Below, one piece after another: positions 30,433-49,779 of a DNA stretch of 64,000 bases (its first letter is position 1; each line of letters starts with the position of its first letter). The stretch is taken from the NCBI GenBank assembly GCA_012490745.1, contig GCA_012490745.1_3925.1. One strand, written 5' to 3'. The position numbers were made by a program, and so were the translations under genes. The notes under the pieces were generated by a model. It was not told the DNA's origin, made no database searches, and saw only the letters and a list, made by a program, of their open reading frames with translations. Origin of the DNA: a phage.

Positions 30433-30681
30433 ATGGCAACTATCCGCGCTACTGTTAACGAGTTCGGTTTTTCCTCTCTGGATGTTAAATTTGACATTGC
30501 AGGCACTGATAACGCCTTTGAAATGGTGAAATGTCTTATCAGTCAGACCATCAAAGACTATAATCCTTCGGATGAGTTCTGGGAGGAAACAAAACAAGAA
30601 GTTCTCAAGGATGGTTATACTTATCACTATTGGGGAGAAAAAATCGTCTCCCTGTACTACAACAAACAAGATTATAACTAA
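30433..30681 (+). CDS. hypothetical protein (cassette-linked)
   Basis: 82 aa from ATG 30433 (the track start 30388 lies inside the cassette). Confidence 0.5.
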   Translation: MATIRATVNEFGFSSLDVKFDIAGTDNAFEMVKCLISQTIKDYNPSDEFWEETKQEVLKDGYTYHYWGEKIVSLYYNKQDYN

Positions 30682-30719
30682 TCGACGCAGCGGGGCTATT
30701 TAGCCCCAGATACCCTAAC

Positions 30720-30745
30720 AGCCCCTATTTAAAGGGGCTTTTTTA
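30720..30745 (+). terminator. rho-independent terminator (AGCCCCT-ATTTAA-AGGGGCT + T6)
   Basis: Perfect 7-bp stem and TTTTTT; preceded by a second hairpin GGGGCTATTTAGCCCC (30692-30707). Confidence 0.7.
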
Positions 30746-30749
30746 CGTC

Positions 30750-32340
30750 TATCGAATCCTTATACAATCCCTTTCCCTCACCTTTCCAGAATCTTATCAG
30801 ACCTTAAAAGCAATAACTCTATAGTCTACTCTATAACCTCTTATCAAATCAACTTAAATATAAGCCCATAACCCGAAAGGGAAGGGCAACCCCTTAAACG
30901 CTCTATAACGCCCTATAACAGCCTTATCAACCTAACTTAAGGGGTTGCATTAACTCACCCTAAAAAGCCCTTCCTAGAGCTTCCTAGAACCTTAAAAGAA
31001 TCTTATAAGGGTGTAAGCTTTATTATCTCGTTAGCTATCTTGTGAACTACTAAACAAGCCCCTTGATAGTAACTGAAAAGTATGTTATAGGGGCTATAAA
31101 GTTACTTCAAAGTTGCTTAAAAGTTACGTAAATGCTAGCCCCCTTAACATTTTCTTAACAATTTCTTAACAAACCCTACATAGTTATGCTTTTAAGGCAC
31201 TTGTTAGCAACTTGTTAGCCCCTTGTTAAATCTCTGTCAAGACCACGTAAAAGCCTTGTAAGAACCTTTGACATAGTCTTTAAAGCCCCTGTAAAGCCCT
31301 ATAAAGAGGTATCTGTACAGTTGGGGTGTAATTACTAGGAAGAGGCTTAAAAGAGCTTACAAGGGGCTATAGAGAGCTTTTAAGAGGGCTATTTAGAGAA
31401 TCACTAAGAAAGAGAGGGAACGATAAGAAAAGAGATAGTGACCATGTTAATAGCTTGTTAAAAAGATTAAACACTTGTTAGAAACTTGTTAATTATCTTA
31501 ACAAAATAACTCTTAAAAATTAACTTGTTAGCTCTTGTTAGTCATCTGTTAAGACTCTGTAAAGACCATGTATCGTCTGTTAAGAAACTGTTAAGCCCTT
31601 GTTAGTTATGTTAAGAATCTGTTAAGACCTCTGAAGAGATGTTAAGAGATTGAGAGAGTTGTTAAGAGATTGTTAAGGATATTTTAAAATTCTGCAAAGT
31701 ACTTGTAAGGGAGCTGTTAAGGGCTACCAAGCAGATATACATCTTCTACAGATATTTTTCAGTTCCTTCAAAGACCCTAAAAAATGACTTGATAGTCCTA
31801 TTTTATAAAAATTTTAAAAATCTGAATAATTACCTATACAGTCTTTCTAAAATACAGGTAATAACAGGCTTATAAGATACCTTGTTAGTACCGTGTTAGA
31901 CCTTGTGAGATAAGGTCTGTAAAGATATTCCTGTTAAGTTTGTTAAAACAGTCTATATAGAGGCTTAGTAGCACCTAGTGAACACCTATAGAGAGTATCA
32001 TAGCTGACATAATGGGTTACTGTTAAGTAACACAGATAACCTAGAGATTAAGAGGTGTATAGGAGCTTCTAAGAGAGTGTAGAGAGATGGTTAAGGTGAT
32101 TGTATAGGTTGTTAAGAAGGCTTGTTAGAAGAGTGTTTAGAGGGCTATTTAGAAGGGCTATACAGAGGGCTATTAAGACCACTAGATAGTTACTAAGATA
32201 CTATATAGTACTATATAACTATATAGAGAGTAAGATTAAGAAGGTTGTTAAGAAGGGTAGATATTTTATTCACATATGATGGTGACCCAGAGGTTGGGAC
32301 AACCGATAAAATTTTACTCAATAAAAAGCCCCCGATTAAG
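30750..32340. repeat. 1.6-kb ORF-free region densely packed with short degenerate repeats
   Basis: No ORF of 60 aa or more on either strand. Repeated words: CTTGTTAG / CTGTTAAG / TTGTTAAGA (over 20 copies, both orientations), GGGCTAT(T/A)NAG, CTATATAG / CTATAAC, CCTTAAAAG. Confidence 0.7.
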
Positions 32341-32357
32341 GAGGCTCTTAAGATATT

Positions 32358-32981
32358 TTAAATCAGTGTTTCCAGAACTGTTTTTAGGGATGACTTGGTT
32401 GTCTGATAAAAATGAGTGAATCCGTTGTTGTTATCGAATATCTGCATCATGATATCATCTCCCTTGATTGGGTACACTCGGATATCATAGTGAAAACCAT
32501 TAAAGACACAAGAACCACTACAGAATGCACTAAAGTCAGCCACTGAGATATACTCTTCATGTCCTGTGATTTTTATACAAACACCTTTACTCGGTCTCTT
32601 AGGGTTGATATCTTCCATCACAGACATACTCTGTCCACCAAGAGATACCATAGTGACCACTTTACGGTTCTTCTGTTTAAAGTACATCTTAACTTTCTGC
32701 AAAGTGTCTTCATAGAATGGATAAGACCTTTCTACAAAGATTCCTTCAAGTGGCTCTTTACCATTTTCAACTTCTCGGTTATGCCGTACTGCAAAGATAA
32801 TTTGTTCGAACCAGTCAAGATTTTCTTCGGAGAGTGCTTCCCGAACATCCTTCCAGTCAAGTACTAAGTAGTTACCTTCAACTTCTTTTAAGTTATCTTT
32901 TTCCATATCTATCACACCATTATCGTAAAACTTGATATTCTGGTACTGCGAATTTATTACTATTGTTCTTGATGAGGTCAT
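32358..32981 (-). CDS. hypothetical protein
   Basis: 207-aa ORF; start may be an internal Met (overlaps next gene). Confidence 0.4.
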   Translation of the reverse strand: MTSSRTIVINSQYQNIKFYDNGVIDMEKDNLKEVEGNYLVLDWKDVREALSEENLDWFEQIIFAVRHNREVENGKEPLEGIFVERSYPFYEDTLQKVKMYFKQKNRKVVTMVSLGGQSMSVMEDINPKRPSKGVCIKITGHEEYISVADFSAFCSGSCVFNGFHYDIRVYPIKGDDIMMQIFDNNNGFTHFYQTTKSSLKTVLETLI

Positions 32982-44390: not shown

Positions 44391-44473
44391 CGGGGCGTAT
44401 CTCAGCGGTCTTCTAAACCGCCGTTAACCGAGTAAGTGGAGTATGCGGGTTCGAGTCCTGCCGCCTCGACCAA
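44391..44473 (+). tRNA. atypical tRNA-like gene (possible Arg, anticodon TCT), D-arm irregular
   Basis: Good acceptor CGGGGCG/CGCCTCG, T-arm GCGGG-TTCGAGT-CCTGC and CCA; hairpin GCGGT-CTTCTAA-ACCGC; no canonical D-stem found. Confidence 0.35.
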
Positions 44474-44614
44474 TTTAGTTAGCAGATTACTTAGACGACC
44501 TAAGCGGGTCTTCCTGTAGGGAGGTGGTCTGTATCTCATGTTTTCCAGAACATGTAAATAATCTGAGAAGGGGCTTTACAGTGTTGAGATAATACGGTAA
44601 GCTTCGAATTATAG

Positions 44615-44699
44615 TATGGGACGATGTTAAGACTCTAAGGCATGAGCAACGGCCTCCAAAACCGTTTCAAAGGGGTTCAACTCCTCCGTCCCATGCCAA
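44615..44699 (+). tRNA. atypical tRNA, possibly Trp (CCA), about 7 extra nt before D-arm
   Basis: Perfect acceptor ATGGGAC/GTCCCAT + CCA; D-arm ACTC-TAAGGCAT-GAGC; anticodon arm ACGGC-CTCCAAA-ACCGT; T-loop TTCAACT. Confidence 0.4.
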
Positions 44700-44711
44700 A
44701 GTCTTATTAGG

Positions 44712-44799
44712 GGTAGGTAGCGGCTAATGGCAGCCAAACAGTCTTGAAAACTGTTGCCACTGTAGAGATACGGTGAGGGTTCGACTCCTTTACTTACCG
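44712..44799 (+). tRNA. tRNA-Ser (TGA), class II
   Basis: D-arm AGCGGCTAATGGCAGCC; anticodon stem ACAGT/ACTGT, loop CTTGAAA; about 20-nt variable arm; T-loop TTCGACT; no encoded CCA. Confidence 0.7.
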
Positions 44800-45058
44800 C
44801 CTAATAAGATTTTTAAAGCCAAGCTTCATTCGGATGTTGCTTTGGTATACCGCGTGTATTGTCGTACACACAGATAAAGCACCTAGTAGGTGTCACGGAG
44901 AAGAGATAATATCAAGCTCTCCAAAGGTTCTAGTCACCGGATTAAACAAGACTATGCAAAGGCCTTTTTAGGTCTTTTTAGAGGGCTTCTAAGGTTATTA
45001 CAGCTTGTTGTGGAACCTTGTTGCTTAGGTTCTTAGAAGTTCTCTAAAAAGATTTAAT

Positions 45059-45136
45059 GGGAGATTGACGGTAATTGGTAAACCTACCATCCTTAGAAGT
45101 TGGTGTTTGAGGGTTCGAATCCCTTGTCTCCTACCA
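45059..45136 (+). tRNA. tRNA, anticodon TAG (Leu?) but short variable arm, identity uncertain
   Basis: Acceptor GGGAGAT/GTCTCCT, anticodon loop CTTAGAA, T-arm GAGGG-TTCGAAT-CCCTT, CCA. Confidence 0.5.
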
Positions 45137-45143
45137 AATTAAT

Positions 45144-45219
45144 GCAGGTGTAGCAAAATGGTTATGCGGCTGACTCTTAATCAGTAAGACGATGGGTTCA
45201 ATTCCCTCCACCTGTACCA
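45144..45219 (+). tRNA. tRNA-Lys (CTT)
   Basis: Anticodon stem GCTGA/TCAGT, loop CTCTTAA; same bulged T-stem as the other Lys tRNA. Confidence 0.65.
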
Positions 45220-45225
45220 AACAAT

Positions 45226-45301
45226 GGGGATGTAGTTTACATGGTTAAAACATAAGTTTTGCAAACTTAAGTACAGGGTTCAATTCCCTGCTTCTCCACC
45301 A
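45226..45301 (+). tRNA. tRNA-Ala (TGC)
   Basis: Anticodon stem TAAGT/ACTTA, loop TTTGCAA; T-arm CAGGG-TTCAATT-CCCTG; CCA. Confidence 0.75.
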
Positions 45302-45307
45302 ATTAGT

Positions 45308-45382
45308 GCATCCATAGTTTAAACGGGAAAATTACAGTCTTCCAAACTGAGGTTGAGGGTTCGATTCCCTCTGGATGCTCCA
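45308..45382 (+). tRNA. tRNA-Gly (TCC)
   Basis: Perfect acceptor GCATCCA/TGGATGC; anticodon loop CTTCCAA; T-arm GAGGG-TTCGATT-CCCTC. Confidence 0.8.
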
Positions 45383-45388
45383 AACAAT

Positions 45389-45465
45389 GCTGCTTTCGTA
45401 TAATTGGCTATTACACATCCCTTGTAAGGATGGAAATGCAGGTTCGAGTCCTGTGAGCAGCACCA
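45389..45465 (+). tRNA. tRNA-Thr (TGT)
   Basis: Anticodon stem CATCC/GGATG, loop CTTGTAA; T-loop TTCGAGT. Confidence 0.8.
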
Positions 45466-45468
45466 ATT

Positions 45469-45556
45469 CAGAGGTCAAGTGAAAGACCGCTTTGAGTCAA
45501 CTGAAGACCGTAACAAATTCCACGGAGTTGAGTTAGCGGCACAACTCCAGACCTCT
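45469..45556 (+). ncRNA. divergent structured element (outer stem AGAGGTC/GACCTCT, inner hairpin GGAGTTG/CAACTCC; contains CTGAAGACCGT box)
   Basis: Two nested inverted repeats between tRNA-Thr and tRNA-Val. Confidence 0.35.
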
Positions 45557-45561
45557 TTCAT

Positions 45562-45636
45562 ACTCGCTTAGTTTATATGGTAAAACATCACCCTTACAAG
45601 ATGAAGAAAAAGGTTCAAGTCCTTTAGTGAGTACCA
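45562..45636 (+). tRNA. tRNA-Val (TAC)
   Basis: Acceptor ACTCGCT/AGTGAGT; anticodon loop CTTACAA; T-arm AAAGG-TTCAAGT-CCTTT. Confidence 0.7.
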
Positions 45637-45637
45637 T

Positions 45638-45715
45638 GTTCCAGTATCCCAATTGGCAGAGGATGCAAGCTCAAACCTTGTACTAGTGACGGTTCGAATC
45701 CGTCTTGGAACACCA
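45638..45715 (+). tRNA. tRNA, anticodon CAA (Leu?) with short variable arm, identity uncertain
   Basis: Acceptor GTTCCAG/TTGGAAC; anticodon stem GCAAG/CTTGT, loop CTCAAAC; T-arm GACGG-TTCGAAT-CCGTC. Confidence 0.5.
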
Positions 45716-45720
45716 ATTTT

Positions 45721-45796
45721 GCAGGATTAGTTCAAATGGATAGAGCAACAGTCTACGAAGCTGTTAATAGGGGTTCGAATCCCTTATCCTGCGCCA
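45721..45796 (+). tRNA. tRNA-Arg (ACG)
   Basis: Perfect acceptor GCAGGAT/ATCCTGC; anticodon loop CTACGAA; T-loop TTCGAAT. Confidence 0.8.
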
Positions 45797-45815
45797 ATTT
45801 AAAGAGGCTATTTAG

Positions 45816-46373
45816 ATGAGATATTTGAAGTATGCTTCATGGATTTTCTTAGCTTTGTTAGAGCCATTTGCAGCAATCTTAGCAGTTATCTTAGCACCTT
45901 TTGTAGTTCCATTCTACAGTGAGAAGAAAGGACACTTACCTTTCGGGTTCAGATGGATGGAGACATATGACAACCCAATTGATGGTGATGAAGGTCACGT
46001 TAAAAGATGGGCTAATATTAGATGGATTGGTAAACTAGGTGTCTACATGCAAAGAGTCGGATGGCTCTGGAGAAACAAAGCTTATAACTTCTCTTACCAT
46101 GTATTAGGAAGAGATGTAAGAGATGTTACTAAGTGGAAAGGTAATATCAACGTAAGTTCTGACCCCGAAGATAATCAGACAGGTTATCTCCTAATGTGGA
46201 ACAGTAATGCTTGGGGATTATTCGCTTTTATCCCATCAATTAAAATCTTTGGTAAACAGTTTTACTGGAGAATTTATATTGGATGGAAACTTAAAAGTGT
46301 TGTCCCAGAAGAAAGAGCATTCTCAAGGGAAAGAGTTATGTTGGCATTCTTTATTCATCCACTGAGAAAGTAA
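45816..46373 (+). CDS. hypothetical membrane protein embedded in tRNA array
   Basis: 185 aa; SD AGAGG 9 nt upstream; N-terminal hydrophobic helix (IFLALLEPFAAILAVILAPFVV). Confidence 0.5.
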   Translation: MRYLKYASWIFLALLEPFAAILAVILAPFVVPFYSEKKGHLPFGFRWMETYDNPIDGDEGHVKRWANIRWIGKLGVYMQRVGWLWRNKAYNFSYHVLGRDVRDVTKWKGNINVSSDPEDNQTGYLLMWNSNAWGLFAFIPSIKIFGKQFYWRIYIGWKLKSVVPEERAFSRERVMLAFFIHPLRK

Positions 46374-46381
46374 AGATTTAA

Positions 46382-46457
46382 AGGGGATTAGTTTACAAGG
46401 TTAAAACCTCGGTCTTTGAAATCGAAGAAGTTGGTTCAATTCCAACATCCCCCGCCA
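46382..46457 (+). tRNA. tRNA-Gln (TTG)
   Basis: Anticodon stem TCGGT/ATCGA, loop CTTTGAA; T-arm GTTGG-TTCAATT-CCAAC. Confidence 0.7.
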
Positions 46458-46459
46458 AT

Positions 46460-46538
46460 GCTCCATTACTCCAATTGGCAGAGAGGCCAGACTTAAAATC
46501 TGTGTTATGTATCGGTTCGAATCCGATATGGAGTACCA
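46460..46538 (+). tRNA. tRNA, anticodon TAA (Leu?) with short variable arm, identity uncertain
   Basis: Acceptor GCTCCAT/ATGGAGT; anticodon loop CTTAAAA; T-arm ATCGG-TTCGAAT-CCGAT. Confidence 0.5.
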
Positions 46539-46543
46539 AATTT

Positions 46544-46619
46544 AGCGGTATAGCATAACTGGCAATGCAACAGTCTCTGAAGCTGTCCTATTAAGGTTCA
46601 AATCCTTATGCCGCTGCCA
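46544..46619 (+). tRNA. tRNA-Gln (CTG)
   Basis: Anticodon stem ACAGT/GCTGT, loop CTCTGAA; T-arm TAAGG-TTCAAAT-CCTTA. Confidence 0.6.
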
Positions 46620-46650
46620 CTTCTAAGGATTCTTACGAGAGTCCTTAAAT

Positions 46651-46726
46651 GTGGCCTTATCATAAAAGGTAATGACCCATGCTGTGAACATGGTCTATAC
46701 GGGTTCAAATCCCGTAGGTCACCCCA
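46651..46726 (+). tRNA. tRNA-His (GTG)
   Basis: Anticodon stem CCATG/CATGG, loop CTGTGAA; T-arm ACGGG-TTCAAAT-CCCGT. Confidence 0.8.
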
Positions 46727-46731
46727 ATTTA

Positions 46732-46808
46732 TAGTCCAAGTAGCTTATATGGTTAAAGCGCGTGTCTGAAAAACATGAGAAGAGGGTTCAAATCCCACTG
46801 GACTACCA
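46732..46808 (+). tRNA. tRNA-Phe (GAA)
   Basis: Anticodon stem CGTGT/ACATG, loop CTGAAAA; T-loop TTCAAAT. Confidence 0.7.
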
Positions 46809-46824
46809 ATTTCAAAGGTGCTTA

Positions 46825-47559
46825 ATGAAAGAGATGACAGAACAAGGTAAGGAGATTTTTAATCTCTTAAAAACTGGTAAAGGGTTTTCTAACCCCCTTA
46901 TTACTGGTGCAGCAGTTCTCGGTGGAACCGTAGCTGCCTCTACATCACTTGTAAGCTCTATTAGCTCTGTATCAGACCCTACAGTAAAGGATAAGCTTGT
47001 TGCTGCTGGACTTACAACAGTTCTGCTTAACAGCTTTACCACGAGTCTGACAAGCACTACATCAACTACCAAAACACTAACAGATTACGGTCAAAAGTCC
47101 ATTGATGAGTTTTCATCACGTATGCAGGTAGCAAAAGGTTATTCTAATGTTATGGGTGCAGCAGGTGAACAAGTTGGCTGTACACCATTTAGTGGTATTA
47201 TGGGTGTTGCTACAGAGTATGGTCAAAAAGCTATTGATACGATTAACAGTACACTAGATAGTGTTAATGGTGTGTTAAGTGACTTACAAGATGCTATTGA
47301 TAAGGGTCTTGATACTGTTTCTGATTTAGCTAATCAGGCTGTTAGCAAGATTAATGAAGGTATCTCAAAGATTACAGCTTATGCAGATGAAGTTGTGCAG
47401 ATGATTGAAGAAGAAGCTGCCCTTATTGCAGAGTACCTTAAAACGAATATCAATGGGTTCTTAGCAGGTATCTTACCAGACTGGTTTGATGATGCTTGTA
47501 AAACTGGTGTGATTGACACTATTGCAACACCAGAAATGAAGAACGCATTACAGAAATAA
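46825..47559 (+). CDS. hypothetical Ser/Thr-rich protein
   Basis: About 244 aa from ATG 46825 (SD AAAGG); the track start 46762 would overlap tRNA-Phe. Confidence 0.45.
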   Translation: MKEMTEQGKEIFNLLKTGKGFSNPLITGAAVLGGTVAASTSLVSSISSVSDPTVKDKLVAAGLTTVLLNSFTTSLTSTTSTTKTLTDYGQKSIDEFSSRMQVAKGYSNVMGAAGEQVGCTPFSGIMGVATEYGQKAIDTINSTLDSVNGVLSDLQDAIDKGLDTVSDLANQAVSKINEGISKITAYADEVVQMIEEEAALIAEYLKTNINGFLAGILPDWFDDACKTGVIDTIATPEMKNALQK

Positions 47560-47560
47560 T

Positions 47561-47653
47561 GGAAGATTAACCCTAAAAGGTAAGGGAGCAGTTTGCTAAA
47601 CTGCCAGTAGCTGAGAAATCGGTGTACCAGTTCAAGTCTGGTATCTTCCTCCA
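47561..47653 (+). tRNA. tRNA-Ser (GCT), class II
   Basis: Perfect acceptor GGAAGAT/ATCTTCC; anticodon stem GCAGT/ACTGC, loop TTGCTAA; long variable arm; T-arm TACCAG-TTCAAGT-CTGGTA. Confidence 0.8.
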
Positions 47654-47657
47654 ATTT

Positions 47658-47733
47658 GAATCCGTGACAGAAATGGCTATGTGCCTGTCTGCAAAACAGG
47701 TTTATAAGGGTTCGAGTCCCTTCGGATTCTCCA
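47658..47733 (+). tRNA. tRNA-Cys (GCA)
   Basis: Perfect acceptor GAATCCG/CGGATTC; anticodon stem CCTGT/ACAGG, loop CTGCAAA; T-arm AAGGG-TTCGAGT-CCCTT. Confidence 0.8.
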
Positions 47734-48156: not shown

Positions 48157-48177
48157 TTCTATTTGCGGAGGTGCTTA

Positions 48178-49779
48178 ATGGACTTAAATGCTGTTAAGCA
48201 GAAGCGAGTGGAAGATGTTAGGAAAGTCCTAGCTGGAGAGTTGGGGCTTTCTGATGAAGTAAAAGAAATTATCAAATCATTCGGTAAAGACCCCTCTAAA
48301 TTCCTTCCAACTCAAATTCTGACTTTATTAAGATACACACCAGACCAAGTTAGACTTATCTTCAAATTGATGACTGATAAGAACTATGTAGCCCCTCAGC
48401 CGGGTTCTCAAGAGGTCTTTTTAAATACTAATGCTGACTTGGTTCTCTATGGTGGTGCTGCGGGTGCTGGTAAGACTGCTGCATTGTTAATGGACTCTTT
48501 AAGGTTTATTGAAGACCCTAACTATAATGCTGTATATTTCCGTCGAAATACAACACAGTTACAAGGTGGTTTATGGCCTGCTGCAAAGAAACTATTTGGT
48601 AAGTTTGGTGGGGTTCCTCACGAGCAGAAGATGACTATCACATTCCCTTCTGGGGCAACTATCAAGTTTACCTATCTAGAACTTGAAAAGCACGCTGAAG
48701 GTCATCAGGGTATTGAATACTCAGCTATTTACTTTGACGAAGGTACACACTTCTCTGCTTCACAGATTTCATACCTACAGACTCGTCTACGTTCTGGGGC
48801 TGAAGGTGATTCATACATGAAGATTTCTATGAACCCAGACAGAGACCACTTTATTTACGATTGGGTAGAACCATTCTTAGATGAAGAAGGTTATCCAGAC
48901 CCTGAAAAGTGTGGTCGTATTCGTTGGTATGTAATGAATGACGGTGTGATGGTTTCTGATTGGGAGAGAGACAAGATTCTTGAAATGTTCCCTCTTGAGA
49001 TTCCTCAAACATACACCTTTATCTCTGGTACGATTGATGATAACCCAATCCTTGACTTCTTAGAGCCTAAGTACCGTGGTAAGTTGGAAAACAACACCCC
49101 TGTAAACGTTGCAAGACTTCGTTTCGGTAACTGGAAGGCTCGTGCAGAAGGTTCAAACTATTGGCAAAGACAATGGTGTGAGATTGTTGATTCACTCCCA
49201 GAAGATGTATTCGATGTTAGAGCATGGGACTTAGCAGCAACTTTACCATCTGAGGTTAACCCTAATCCAGACTGGACAGCAGGTGTTAAGATGGGTAAAT
49301 CTAAAAAAGACGGTTGCTATTATATCATTGATGTAGTAAGATTTAGAGATAGACCCTCTGGAGTCGAAACACAAATTAATTTGACTGCTGAAAGTGACGG
49401 TAAGCGAACTGGTATTTTTATCCCTCAAGACCCAGGCGCTGCTGGTAAATCCTACGCAACATCCCTCATCAGGAAACTTGCCGAGAAAGGCTATCGTGCA
49501 AGAGCTAAACCAACAAATAAAGATAAAGTTACCCGCTTTGCGGGATTTTCTGCTGCTTCTGAAGCTGGACTTGTAAAAGTCTTGAGAGGTAGTTGGAATG
49601 AAGCTTACTTTCAAGAGCTTGAAGGCTTTTGTGGTGATGGCAAAACTAAAGATGACCAAGTGGATGCTACCAGTGATGCTTTCAACAGTCTTAACGAAGT
49701 TAAATTATTCAAGCCACCATCAATGGGTGCTCACACAGACTTAGTGAGGGGAAACCCATATGAGGGGCTTAGACGTTGA
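48178..49779 (+). CDS. terminase large subunit
   Basis: About 533 aa from ATG 48178 (SD GGAGG); Walker A-like LVLYGGAAGAGKT; C-terminal nuclease-like acidic motifs; precedes portal. Confidence 0.8.
   Translation: MDLNAVKQKRVEDVRKVLAGELGLSDEVKEIIKSFGKDPSKFLPTQILTLLRYTPDQVRLIFKLMTDKNYVAPQPGSQEVFLNTNADLVLYGGAAGAGKTAALLMDSLRFIEDPNYNAVYFRRNTTQLQGGLWPAAKKLFGKFGGVPHEQKMTITFPSGATIKFTYLELEKHAEGHQGIEYSAIYFDEGTHFSASQISYLQTRLRSGAEGDSYMKISMNPDRDHFIYDWVEPFLDEEGYPDPEKCGRIRWYVMNDGVMVSDWERDKILEMFPLEIPQTYTFISGTIDDNPILDFLEPKYRGKLENNTPVNVARLRFGNWKARAEGSNYWQRQWCEIVDSLPEDVFDVRAWDLAATLPSEVNPNPDWTAGVKMGKSKKDGCYYIIDVVRFRDRPSGVETQINLTAESDGKRTGIFIPQDPGAAGKSYATSLIRKLAEKGYRARAKPTNKDKVTRFAGFSAASEAGLVKVLRGSWNEAYFQELEGFCGDGKTKDDQVDATSDAFNSLNEVKLFKPPSMGAHTDLVRGNPYEGLRR

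What the first reader, a model, noticed from the sequence alone, without database searches (positions are those of the whole stretch)
30750..32340. 1.6-kb ORF-free region saturated with short repeat families at a convergent transcription boundary
No ORF of 60 aa or more exists on either strand for about 1.6 kb in an otherwise tightly packed genome. The region contains more than 20 copies of TTGTTA(A/G)G-type words in both orientations, clusters of GGGCTAT(T/A), CTATATAG/CTATAAC and CCTTAAAAG. It lies between the terminator of the rightward island and the stop of the leftward operon. Candidates: binding-site array for a phage or host DNA-binding protein, packaging/injection-related sequence, replication element, or a source of small RNAs. 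The same words recur in the divergent promoter region at 40.5-40.75 kb.
Basis: seen in the sequence. Interest (0 to 1): 0.7.

Follow-up and report, generated by a model that had tools for sequence, protein, structure and literature searches.

The report
Genome ends of a Felix O1-like phage
The 1.6-kb gene-free, repeat-filled stretch is where the linear chromosome of a Felix O1-like phage begins and ends (a 591-bp terminal repeat plus its non-coding flanks), which is already known for close relatives, although the conserved array of TGTTAAG words inside it has not been explained.

Summary
Window 30682-32357 is the largest gene-free gap in the window and is packed with short words; TGTTAAG is 37-fold enriched. 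The window is a Felixounavirus genome. In three relatives deposited with a terminal repeat at both ends (Pr103Blw, ZX4221, ECP2307), the repeat maps to window 31138-31728, and the boundary sequences match the window. In UAB_Phi87 the ends were found experimentally: a 608-bp repeat whose position the paper text does not give; its homologous segment is 614 bp. So the "convergent boundary" is the collapsed junction of the two chromosome ends: right-end unique DNA, a 591-bp direct terminal repeat (DTR), then left-end unique DNA. The DTR holds 23 TGTTAR copies, often 11 bp apart, facing outward toward both boundaries. These copies are more conserved than their spacers (91% vs 70% across genera). 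The same word and boundary sequences recur in a Kolesnikvirus with no BLAST-level similarity. My inference is that the arrays and boundary words are cis-acting packaging and end-cutting signals. A DUF5681 protein with an AT-hook-like motif (40750-41121) is a candidate small terminase. The DTR is already known; the array architecture is apparently undescribed. Interest is modest.

The parts
30720..30745 (+). Intrinsic-terminator-like hairpin plus T-run that ends the rightward gene cluster. A second hairpin, GGGGCTATTTAGCCCC, lies just upstream at 30692-30707.
   Evidence: 7-pair stem, 5 GC pairs, then TTTTTT. The stem bases are conserved in relatives.
30746..31137 (.). Right-end unique non-coding segment; in the virion it sits just inside the right-hand copy of the terminal repeat. 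It has almost no TGTTAR (0-1 copy). Its own words are CTCTATA(G/A), CTATAAC, CTTATCAA, CTTCCTAG and CTTAAAAG. It is the best-conserved part between genera.
   Evidence: Nucleotide identity to Suspvirus and Mooglevirus is 80-85%.
31089..31137 (+). Four 11-bp phased AAAGTTRC-type units that abut the left DTR boundary. Their copy number varies between relatives.
   Evidence: Family D6, spacing 11/11. Indels of 11 bp occur here in several relatives, and FO1a has a 154-bp expansion.
31134..31149 (.). Left DTR boundary: ...TGCTA|GCCCCCTTAACA, with the end at 31138 (uncertain by up to about 6 nt).
   Evidence: The cut position is identical in Pr103Blw, ZX4221 and ECP2307. The sequence is conserved in 11 relatives and recognisable in Kolesnikvirus SPARTY. 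GCTAGC and GCCCCC occur nowhere else in the 64 kb.
31138..31728 (.). Direct terminal repeat (DTR), 591 bp. It appears once here because the assembly is collapsed; it is inferred to be present at both ends of the virion DNA.
   Evidence: The annotated 581-bp DTR of Pr103Blw aligns to 31138-31728 at 89% identity. Exact repeats of 581, 591 and 592 bp with the same boundaries occur in three records. Other records start or end at this segment. UAB_Phi87 has an experimentally determined 608-bp DTR.
31144..31171 (-). Three TGTTAAG copies on the minus strand, 11 bp apart, pointing toward the left boundary.
   Evidence: Two copies sit at the same offsets (18 and 29) in the SPARTY DTR.
31202..31721 (+). 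Nineteen TGTTAR copies on the plus strand pointing toward the right boundary, with one further minus-strand copy at 31498. Successive spacings are mostly 10-11 bp or multiples of that.
   Evidence: Motif positions are 91% conserved against 70% for other DTR positions in distant genera. The spacing pattern 11,11,9,(11/20),20,20,11 is shared with SPARTY.
31715..31740 (.). Right DTR boundary: TGTTAAGGGCTACC|AAGCAGATATAC, with the end at 31728.
   Evidence: The cut position is identical in three records. The sequence is near-invariant in 11 relatives, with single substitutions in SUSP1 and Andreotti. AAGCAGATATAC also lies directly outside the SPARTY DTR, and it occurs only once in the window.
31729..32357 (.). 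Left-end unique non-coding segment; in the virion it follows the left-hand DTR copy. It holds 8 more plus-strand TGTTAR copies, GGGCTAT x3, CTATATAG x3, and an AT-rich tract at about 31795-31835.
   Evidence: The TGTTAR copies here are not preferentially conserved: 57% vs 71% for other positions.
32329..32343 (-). Terminator-like hairpin that ends the leftward operon, whose last ORF is 32358-32981.
   Evidence: A terminator is annotated at the same place in XTG1, wV8 and Moogle.
40750..41121 (+). DUF5681 protein, a candidate small terminase subunit and possible binder of the arrays (inferred only).
   Evidence: Pfam DUF5681, E = 2e-14. Homologues sit directly upstream of and overlapping large-terminase genes in unrelated phage contigs, or upstream of terminase and portal genes. 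The invariant core PSGRPKGSRNKS matches the HMGA AT-hook, but only weakly (E = 0.2).
48163..49779 (+). Large terminase subunit, the enzyme expected to cut at the DTR boundaries.
   Evidence: PHROG 979 'terminase large subunit', E = 1e-233, followed by a portal gene.

Best explanation
The region is the joined-up image of the two ends of a linear Felix O1-like phage chromosome, that is, the concatemer junction. It has three parts: about 420 bp of right-end unique non-coding DNA (30720-31137), a 591-bp direct terminal repeat (31138-31728), and about 630 bp of left-end unique non-coding DNA (31729-32357). Genes on each side are transcribed toward the chromosome ends, which is why the region looks like a convergent boundary.

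Proposed mechanism, inferred by analogy with T7-type phages. Replication produces head-to-tail concatemers with one repeat copy per junction. The terminase recognises cis-acting signals here and cuts at two fixed, conserved sites: TGCTA|GCCCCC on the left and GGGCTACC|AAGCAGATATAC on the right. The repeat is duplicated so that each packaged genome carries a copy at both ends.

The roughly 23 TGTTAR words in the repeat are often one helical turn apart and face outward toward both boundaries. I propose they are a phased binding array for the small terminase subunit or another packaging protein, and that the array positions the nuclease at the boundary words. The distinct word families on the two flanks would tell the left end from the right. 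A DUF5681 protein with an AT-hook-like motif (40750-41121) is my candidate binder of the TTAA cores.

What is shown: the location of the ends in relatives, the identity of the boundary sequences, and the enrichment, orientation, spacing and selective conservation of the array. What is inferred: that this particular phage has the same ends, that the arrays bind terminase, and that DUF5681 is the small terminase.
For: Taxonomy and conservation: 257 phage records match the region, almost all Felixounavirus and allied genera, and 178 match over at least 80% of it.

Physical ends in relatives:
- Pr103Blw carries an annotated 581-bp DTR at both record ends. Its first gene starts 631 bp after the left copy, and its last gene ends 457 bp before the right copy. 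PhageTerm evidence is in PMC8303462.
- That DTR aligns to window 31138-31728.
- ZX4221 (591 bp) and ECP2307 (592 bp, deposited in the opposite orientation) have exact terminal repeats with identical boundaries. The window's boundary sequences equal those of ZX4221.
- Further records begin or end at this segment: pEP20, H12, GE_vB_7A, MET-P1-301 and BPS15Q2.
- UAB_Phi87 ends were determined by Bal31 digestion and run-off sequencing, giving a 608-bp DTR. The distance between the boundary words in its record is 614 bp.

Evidence of function for the arrays:
- Inside the DTR, TGTTAR positions are 91% conserved against 70% for other positions in distant genera, and 97.5% against 88% within the genus.
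- Every relative keeps 19-23 copies with the same orientation bias.
- 13 of 32 successive spacings are 10-11 bp, and 7 more are about two or three times that.
- Indels between relatives come in units of 10-12, 21-24 and 32-33 bp.
- The non-coding DNA is as conserved between genera (73-85% nt) as the flanking genes (72-77% nt over partial lengths). The neighbouring protein is only 48-56% identical.

Deep conservation: Kolesnikvirus SPARTY (439-bp DTR by PhageTerm) has no BLAST-level similarity. It still has a 1454-bp non-coding junction with 25 TTAACA/TGTTAA words, the same AAGCAGATATAC just outside one boundary, GCC after TTA| at the other, and the same internal spacing pattern.

Trans-acting factors: large terminase; DUF5681 synteny with terminase genes and an AT-hook-like core.
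Against: The window holds only one copy of the repeat, so the DTR of this particular phage rests on homology rather than observation. Reported end positions differ by up to 6 nt between sources: GE_vB_7A starts 6 nt further in, and UAB_Phi87 is 608 vs 614 bp.

No binding, cutting or packaging data exist for the arrays. One paper on a Felixounavirus (SEP1) reports pac-type headful packaging instead, although its methods date the PhageTerm run 1 June 2026 and give no details.

TGTTAR copies outside the DTR are not preferentially conserved. Long-range helical phasing is not significant in a Fourier test.

The DUF5681 model is of low confidence (pLDDT 66.6). The AT-hook match is a 12-residue motif with E = 0.2. 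In this genome the DUF5681 gene lies 7 kb from the large terminase gene.
Confidence: 0.8

Rival explanations
1. The TGTTAAG array is an iteron-type replication origin. An initiator protein would bind the phased repeats and melt the nearby AT-rich tract. This could coexist with the terminal-repeat role.
For: There are more than 20 direct repeats, often 11 bp apart. An AT-rich tract of about 40 bp lies at 31795-31835, about 70 bp from the array. The motif copies are under selection. The cumulative GC skew turns here.
Against: The array fills the terminal repeat exactly, and its outermost copies face the two end-cut sites. No initiator-like gene is adjacent; all flanking proteins fall in families of unknown function. 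There is no cluster of DnaA boxes: 2 loose matches in the region and no enrichment in the window. The GC-skew turn is also explained by the switch in transcription direction.
Confidence: 0.12
2. The arrays bind a protein other than terminase. Candidates are a phage end-protection or DNA-ejection factor, a nucleoid-type protein that condenses or bends the ends, or a regulator.
For: The evidence is the same as for a binding array: enrichment, phasing and selective conservation. Some of the words (CTTAAAAG, CTTATAAG, GGCTATTTA) also occur in the divergent promoter region at 40.6-40.75 kb, so part of the vocabulary may be regulatory.
Against: The dominant TGTTAAG word is absent from the promoter region. 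No IHF consensus occurs in the region. The outward-facing terminal copies sit 12-14 bp from each end, which fits end cutting better.
Confidence: 0.2
3. The short repeats have no sequence-specific role. They would be by-products of slippage and unequal recombination in non-coding terminal DNA, where only the two cut sites matter.
For: Indels come in whole 11-bp units, and copy number varies between relatives, for example a 154-bp expansion in FO1a. TGTTAR copies outside the DTR are not preferentially conserved.
Against: Inside the DTR, motif positions are clearly more conserved than spacers, at 91% vs 70%. The same word and spacing pattern survive in a genus with no alignable similarity.
Confidence: 0.1
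4. The region is a source of small or non-coding RNAs.
For: A sigma-70-like promoter candidate with an extended -10 (TTGATA-N17-TGtTATAGG) lies at 31063-31091 and reads into the repeat. Its hexamers are conserved.
Against: No Rfam family matches; the best hit scores 23 bits against a gathering score of 55. Promoter-like sites are not enriched, at 7 found vs 6.2 expected. Folding around the boundaries is unremarkable, with z-scores from -1.9 to +0.3. A 12-bp inverted repeat at 30886-30948 is not conserved.
Confidence: 0.05
5. The region is decayed coding sequence or an assembly or frameshift artefact.
For: Some GenBank records annotate short hypothetical proteins here.
Against: A gene-free gap of 1.45-1.75 kb lies at the genome-end junction in four genera, and between homologous flanking genes in three of them. 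No small ORF is shared among 11 relatives.
Confidence: 0.01

Closest known systems
Direct terminal repeats of Felix O1-like phages (UAB_Phi87, 608 bp, wet-lab; Pr103Blw, 581 bp, PhageTerm)
   Same: For Pr103Blw it is the same locus and the same flanking genes, with boundary sequences identical to the window. UAB_Phi87 has the same boundary words, and its published repeat length (608 bp) fits the 614-bp segment between them. The window's segment is 84-96% identical to those of relatives.
   Different: Nothing essential differs. The length varies between 568 and 614 bp through gain or loss of 11-bp units. None of the papers I read mentions the word arrays or the conserved boundary words.
T7/T3 concatemer junction (short exact terminal repeat flanked by arrays of short repeats, with cis-acting packaging signals)
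   Same: Both have a short, exact, non-permuted terminal repeat in non-coding DNA, with arrays of short repeated words beside it (from my own knowledge of the T7 sequence). [quoted passage not shown]
   Different: T7 uses its own RNA polymerase, phage promoters at both ends, and a polymerase pause at the junction. No single-subunit RNA polymerase is known for Felix O1-like phages (own knowledge). Here the repeat is about 3.7 times longer and is itself filled with the array. Genes on both sides run toward the ends, rather than early genes running inward from the left end.
pac sites built from repeated short words around the cut (P1 pac hexamers; SPP1 pacL/pacR boxes)
   Same: A short word is repeated many times on both sides of a terminase cut, partly in helical phase, and probably binds the small terminase (own knowledge for P1 and SPP1).
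   Different: Those phages package by the headful mechanism and have permuted ends. Here the ends are fixed at both boundaries. Binding is untested here.
Iteron-type replication origins (plasmids, P1 oriR, lambda ori)
   Same: Both have multiple direct repeats about one helical turn apart near an AT-rich tract.
   Different: There is no adjacent initiator gene and no cluster of DnaA boxes. There are more than 20 copies, and the array coincides with the terminal repeat.

Membership tests
Short exact direct terminal repeat (T7-type DTR) genome ends | The same sequence is present at both ends of the virion DNA. | not testable with these tools
   The window holds one collapsed copy and no reads. 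In relatives the feature is met: exact repeats of 581, 591 and 592 bp at both ends of three records.
Short exact direct terminal repeat (T7-type DTR) genome ends | The ends are fixed and non-permuted, at defined sequence positions. | tested here: met
   Three independent records share identical boundary positions, and the window has the same boundary sequences. Wet-lab ends were determined in UAB_Phi87. This is met by homology; direct proof for this phage is lacking.
Short exact direct terminal repeat (T7-type DTR) genome ends | The large terminase groups with DTR-type terminases. | not tested
   A large terminase is present at 48163-49779. I built no tree. PMC4837284 reports that Felix O1-like terminases form a DTR group.
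Repeated-word pac site bound by the small terminase | A short word is repeated on both sides of the terminase cut. | tested here: met
   TGTTAR copies flank the right boundary on both sides and lie inside the left boundary. The terminal copies sit 12-14 bp from each end.
Repeated-word pac site bound by the small terminase | The small terminase binds the words specifically. | not testable with these tools
   Only a candidate protein exists: DUF5681, supported by synteny and an AT-hook-like motif.
Repeated-word pac site bound by the small terminase | Headful packaging with permuted, imprecise ends. | tested here: not met
   The ends are exact and identical in independent records. One paper claims headful packaging for SEP1, against several that report a DTR.
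Iteron-type replication origin | An array of direct repeats at helical spacing. | tested here: met
Iteron-type replication origin | An adjacent AT-rich unwinding element and host-factor sites (DnaA, IHF). | tested here: inconclusive
   An AT-rich tract lies at about 31795-31835. There is no IHF consensus, only two scattered DnaA-like boxes, and no enrichment.
Iteron-type replication origin | A cognate initiator gene next to or overlapping the iterons. | tested here: not met
   All ten flanking proteins tested fall in PHROG families of unknown function, and none is initiator-like. The three of them also scanned against Pfam gave only DUF5681.
Described non-coding RNA families (Rfam 15) | A match reaching the family's gathering score. 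| tested here: not met
   There is one sub-threshold match, at 23 bits vs 55.

The most novel reading that the evidence does not exclude
The roughly 20-copy, outward-facing TGTTAAG array inside the terminal repeat, together with the two conserved boundary words, would be the packaging-recognition and end-cutting signal shared by the whole subfamily Ounavirinae. It would be read by a previously unrecognised class of small terminase: DUF5681 proteins whose N-terminal AT-hook docks into the TTAA cores spaced one helical turn apart. That would be the first defined cis/trans recognition system for short-DTR myoviruses, and it would work without the RNA-polymerase pause that T7 needs.
Probability: 0.3. 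Interest if true: 0.5.

Novelty: already known. Interest (0 to 1): 0.3.

Why it matters
The practical value is correct annotation. This genome should be opened at 31138, and it carries a 591-bp repeat that a circularised assembly hides, so the true virion DNA is about 0.6 kb longer than the collapsed sequence.

The biological value is that the region offers a well-defined, deeply conserved set of candidate cis-signals for DNA packaging: two unique boundary words and a phased word array. These belong to a phage group widely used for Salmonella and E. coli typing, biocontrol and engineering. Packaging signals and the small terminase have not been defined for this group in the literature I could search.

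Knowing these signals would help genome rebooting and synthetic assembly of these phages, design of packageable vectors, and prediction of ends from sequence alone.

Tried and rejected
- **Rfam scan** of 30500-32500 at E <= 1 gave nothing usable.
- **Promoter and terminator consensus scan:** promoter-like sites are at chance level, and only the two bounding terminators stand out.
- **IHF consensus:** none in the region.
- **DnaA boxes:** no cluster.
- **Fourier test for long-range 10-11 bp periodicity** of AA/TT, G or TTA did not exceed same-length control windows. The phasing is local, between neighbouring copies, not global.
- **Single-strand DNA folding around both boundaries:** the left boundary sits in a long imperfect palindrome (31089-31223), but z is only -1.7 to -1.9. 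The right boundary is unremarkable. I therefore claim no T7-like hairpin.
- **A perfect 12-bp inverted repeat** (GCAACCCCTTAA / TTAAGGGGTTGC, 30886-30948) looked like a hairpin but is not conserved in relatives.
- **Small ORFs in the region** are not conserved.
- **PhageMaP essentiality study of Bas63**, a Felixounavirus: its Bas63 library was designed as 2-4 sgRNAs per gene, and the passages I read report nothing on this non-coding region.
- **The Felix O1 genome paper** does not discuss the region in the passages I searched and only infers short terminal repeats.
- **AlphaFold model of the DUF5681 protein** was too poor (pLDDT 66.6, pTM 0.35) to justify a fold search.
- **Sequence and profile searches of PDB** gave only the short AT-hook match.
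- **PHROGs, Pfam and source names** gave no terminase label for DUF5681.
Full report
**1.
No ORF of 60 aa or more exists on either strand between 30703 and 32358. The longest ORFs wholly inside are 35-37 aa. On a crude gene map, 30682-32357 (1676 bp) is the largest non-coding gap in the window; the other gaps over 700 bp contain tRNA genes.

- TGTTAAG occurs 34 times in the window against 16.2 +/- 3.5 in shuffles, and half of these lie in 1.1 kb.
- Measured against the rest of the window, TGTTAAG is 17 vs 0.46 expected, CTTGTTAG is 8 vs 0.12, GGGCTAT is 6 vs 0.20, and CTATATAG has three sites vs none elsewhere.
- The looser word TGTTAR has 31 copies (18.9 per kb vs 1.62 per kb elsewhere), split 27 plus-strand to 4 minus-strand.

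Terminator-like hairpins bound the region on both sides. The claim about the 40.5-40.75 kb region is only partly right. CTTAAAAG, CTTATAAG and GGCTATTTA recur there, but the dominant TGTTAAG/CTTGTTAG family does not.

**2. What the window is.**
The region matches 257 phage records, 178 of them over at least 80% of its length. Nearly all are Felixounavirus and allied Ounavirinae, and the best match is 93.7% identical. The same gene-free gap of 1.6-1.75 kb lies between homologous flanking genes in Felixounavirus, Suspvirus and Mooglevirus. No small ORF is shared among 11 aligned relatives, and wV8 has none of 30 aa or more. Decayed genes and assembly error are therefore excluded.

**3. The physical chromosome ends lie here.**
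- Phage Pr103Blw was reported to have 581-bp direct terminal repeats by PhageTerm (PMC8303462). Its GenBank record starts and ends with that annotated repeat. After the left copy come 631 bp of non-coding DNA and then the leftward operon. Before the right copy come 457 bp of non-coding DNA after the last rightward gene. Those three pieces add up to the window's gap.
- The Pr103Blw repeat aligns to window 31138-31728.
- ZX4221 and ECP2307 were deposited independently, one in the opposite orientation. They carry exact repeats of 591 and 592 bp at both ends with the same boundaries...TGCTA|GCCCCCTTAACA and ...TGTTAAGGGCTACC|AAGCAG. The window is identical to ZX4221 at both boundaries.
- Several further records begin or end at this segment. 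Others have the first leftward gene about 1.2 kb from the record start.
- For UAB_Phi87 the ends were determined experimentally by Bal31 digestion and run-off sequencing, giving a 608-bp repeat (PMC4837284). The distance between the boundary words in its record is 614 bp. The 6-nt difference matches the start of the GE_vB_7A record, so I give the boundary positions an uncertainty of up to about 6 nt.
- One paper reports headful packaging for a Felixounavirus, SEP1. It stands alone against this evidence.

The "convergent transcription boundary" is therefore the collapsed junction of the two ends of a linear genome, and each flanking gene cluster is transcribed toward its end.

**4. Anatomy.**
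- *Right-end unique segment (30720-31137).* It has almost no TGTTAR and its own vocabulary: CTCTATAG/CTATAAC, CTTATCAA, CTTCCTAG and CTTAAAAG. It ends with four 11-bp AAAGTTRC units that abut the repeat.
- *Terminal repeat (31138-31728).* It holds 23 TGTTAR copies. Three minus-strand copies 11 bp apart lie at its left edge, 19 plus-strand copies follow, and one further minus-strand copy lies at 31498. The edge copies and the plus-strand run therefore point outward toward the two boundaries. The outermost copy lies 12 bp (left) and 14 bp (right) from the end.
- *Left-end unique segment (31729-32357).* It has eight more plus-strand copies, clusters of GGGCTAT and CTATATAG, and an AT-rich tract.

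Of 32 successive spacings between plus-strand copies of the looser word TGTWAR, 13 are 10-11 bp, 4 are 20-22 bp and 3 are 31-33 bp. A Fourier test shows no significant long-range phase.

**5. Signs of selection.**
- Inside the repeat, motif positions are conserved at 91% in the three distant-genus sequences, against 70% for other positions. Within the genus the figures are 97.5% vs 88%.
- Outside the repeat the copies are not favoured (57% vs 71%).
- Every relative keeps 19-23 copies in the repeat with the same orientation bias.
- Between genera, the non-coding DNA is 73-85% identical over nearly its full length. The flanking genes reach 72-77% over partial lengths, and the adjacent protein is only 48-56% identical.
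- Indels of 5 bp or more between relatives cluster at 10-12, 21-24 and 32-33 bp, with a 154-bp expansion in FO1a. The region therefore changes by whole 11-bp units. This also explains repeat lengths of 568-614 bp.

**6. Conservation beyond alignable similarity.**
Hafnia phage SPARTY (Kolesnikvirus) has a 439-bp terminal repeat by PhageTerm (PMC8928762) and was not found by BLAST with the window's region. Its collapsed junction is 1454 bp of non-coding DNA with 25 TTAACA/TGTTAA words, and TCTTAACA is the top 8-mer.

When SPARTY is placed in the window's orientation:
- One boundary reads ...CCACT|AAGCAGATATACA, against the window's ...CTACC|AAGCAGATATACA.
- The other reads ...TTACGCTATGGTTA|GCCACTTTTACATTT, against ...TTACGTAAATGCTA|GCCCCCTTAACATTT.
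- Minus-strand copies sit at the same offsets (18 and 29).
- A plus-strand run has spacings 11,11,9,20,20,20,11, against 11,11,9,11,20,20,11 in the window.

AAGCAGATATAC and GCTAGC each occur once in the 64 kb, exactly at the boundaries. The cut sites and the array are thus shared features of the subfamily.

**7. Candidate trans-acting factors.**
The large terminase is at 48163-49779, followed by portal, protease and major head genes. No small terminase is annotated.

The first gene of the same rightward unit (40750-41121) is a DUF5681 protein. In unrelated metagenomic phage contigs, DUF5681 genes overlap the start of a large-terminase gene. In others they lie upstream of terminase and portal genes with an insert between, or precede an unannotated protein of 470-624 aa. 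This is the classical small-terminase position.

Its invariant core, PSGRPKGSRNKS, matches the second AT-hook of HMGA, PRGRPKGSKNKG (PDB 2EZD). The match covers only 12 residues at E = 0.2. The AlphaFold model is helical but of low confidence. In the window this gene is separated from the large terminase by a Ro60-like gene and 25 tRNA genes.

**8. Mechanism.**
*Shown:* the ends map here in relatives; the boundary sequences are conserved and unique; and the array is enriched, oriented, locally phased and selectively conserved.

*Inferred:* this phage has the same ends. As in other short-DTR phages, concatemers carry one repeat per junction, the terminase cuts at the two boundary words, and the repeat is duplicated. 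The TGTTAAG array is the platform on which a small terminase assembles and positions the nuclease, and the unlike flanks give polarity. My candidate small terminase is DUF5681, with AT-hooks reaching into the TTAA cores one helical turn apart. I put about 0.9 on the identity of the region, about 0.4-0.5 on the array being a terminase-binding platform, and about 0.3 on DUF5681 being its reader.

**9. Rivals.**
- An iteron origin is not excluded and could coexist. However, no initiator gene is adjacent, DnaA boxes are not clustered, and the array coincides with the repeat.
- A different binding protein is possible; part of the vocabulary recurs in a promoter region.
- Functionless slippage products are contradicted by the motif-vs-spacer contrast and by SPARTY.
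- Small RNAs have no support.

**10. Comparison with known systems, and verdict.**
The terminal repeat of Felix O1-like phages at this locus is published and annotated, so the feature is already known. It works like the T7/T3 concatemer junction in having a short, exact repeat with packaging specificity near the termini. It differs in lacking a phage RNA polymerase, in the direction of flanking transcription, and in the repeat being filled by the array. It resembles repeated-word pac sites but fails their headful criterion.

I found no description of the array or the boundary words in the papers I could search, and that literature coverage is limited. Interest is modest: the main finding is ordinary once the ends are recognised. 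The conserved array and the DUF5681 lead are a useful, testable side result.

Noticed in passing
window 40750-41121 (+): A DUF5681 protein is the first gene of the rightward unit at the divergent promoter. Homologues elsewhere sit in the small-terminase position next to large-terminase genes. Its invariant core PSGRPKGSRNKS looks like an HMGA AT-hook. No source names it a terminase.
   Followed up: partly
window 41203-47733 (+): A Ro60-like gene (DUF2828/DUF7788) is followed by 25 tRNA genes. The block lies between the DUF5681 gene and the large terminase, as if a 7-kb RNA-related island had split a terminase operon. A marine relative (L032/L033) shows the same order with a shorter insert.
   Followed up: partly
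window 31063-31091 (+): A sigma-70-like promoter candidate with an extended -10 (TTGATA-N17-TGtTATAGG) lies 47 bp before the left repeat boundary and reads into the repeat. Both hexamers are conserved in most of the 11 aligned relatives. Its position recalls the T7 promoter just upstream of the right terminal repeat.
   Followed up: no
window 31089-31223: A long imperfect palindrome is centred about 18 bp inside the left repeat boundary, with outer arms AGGGGCTA / TAGCCCCT. Its folding z-score is only -1.7 to -1.9, so its significance is unclear.
   Followed up: partly
window 31982-32081: This is the least conserved stretch of the non-coding region (mean 0.55 against 0.75-0.95 elsewhere). The window carries a 32-bp segment at about 32010 that nine of ten relatives lack.
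   Followed up: no
window 48163-49779 (+): The large-terminase ORF starts at a TTG and aligns only from position 82 of the 642-position PHROG profile. The true start, or an N-terminal piece, may lie upstream just after the last tRNA gene.
   Followed up: no
GenBank GU169904 (Staphylococcus phage SA1), positions 135884-136463; protein P0022: A 147-kb 'Staphylococcus' phage record contains this Felix O1-like terminal repeat at 88% identity. A partial 'Staphylococcus aureus' protein is 100% identical to the window's DUF5681 protein. These are probably chimeric or contaminated records.
   Followed up: no
window 31543-31553 and 31616-31626 (+): Two array copies read (C/A)ATCTGTTAAG, which contains ATCTGTT. 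From memory, that is the core of the T7 RNA-polymerase class II pause signal used at the T7 concatemer junction. It is probably a coincidence, since no such polymerase is known in these phages.
   Followed up: no
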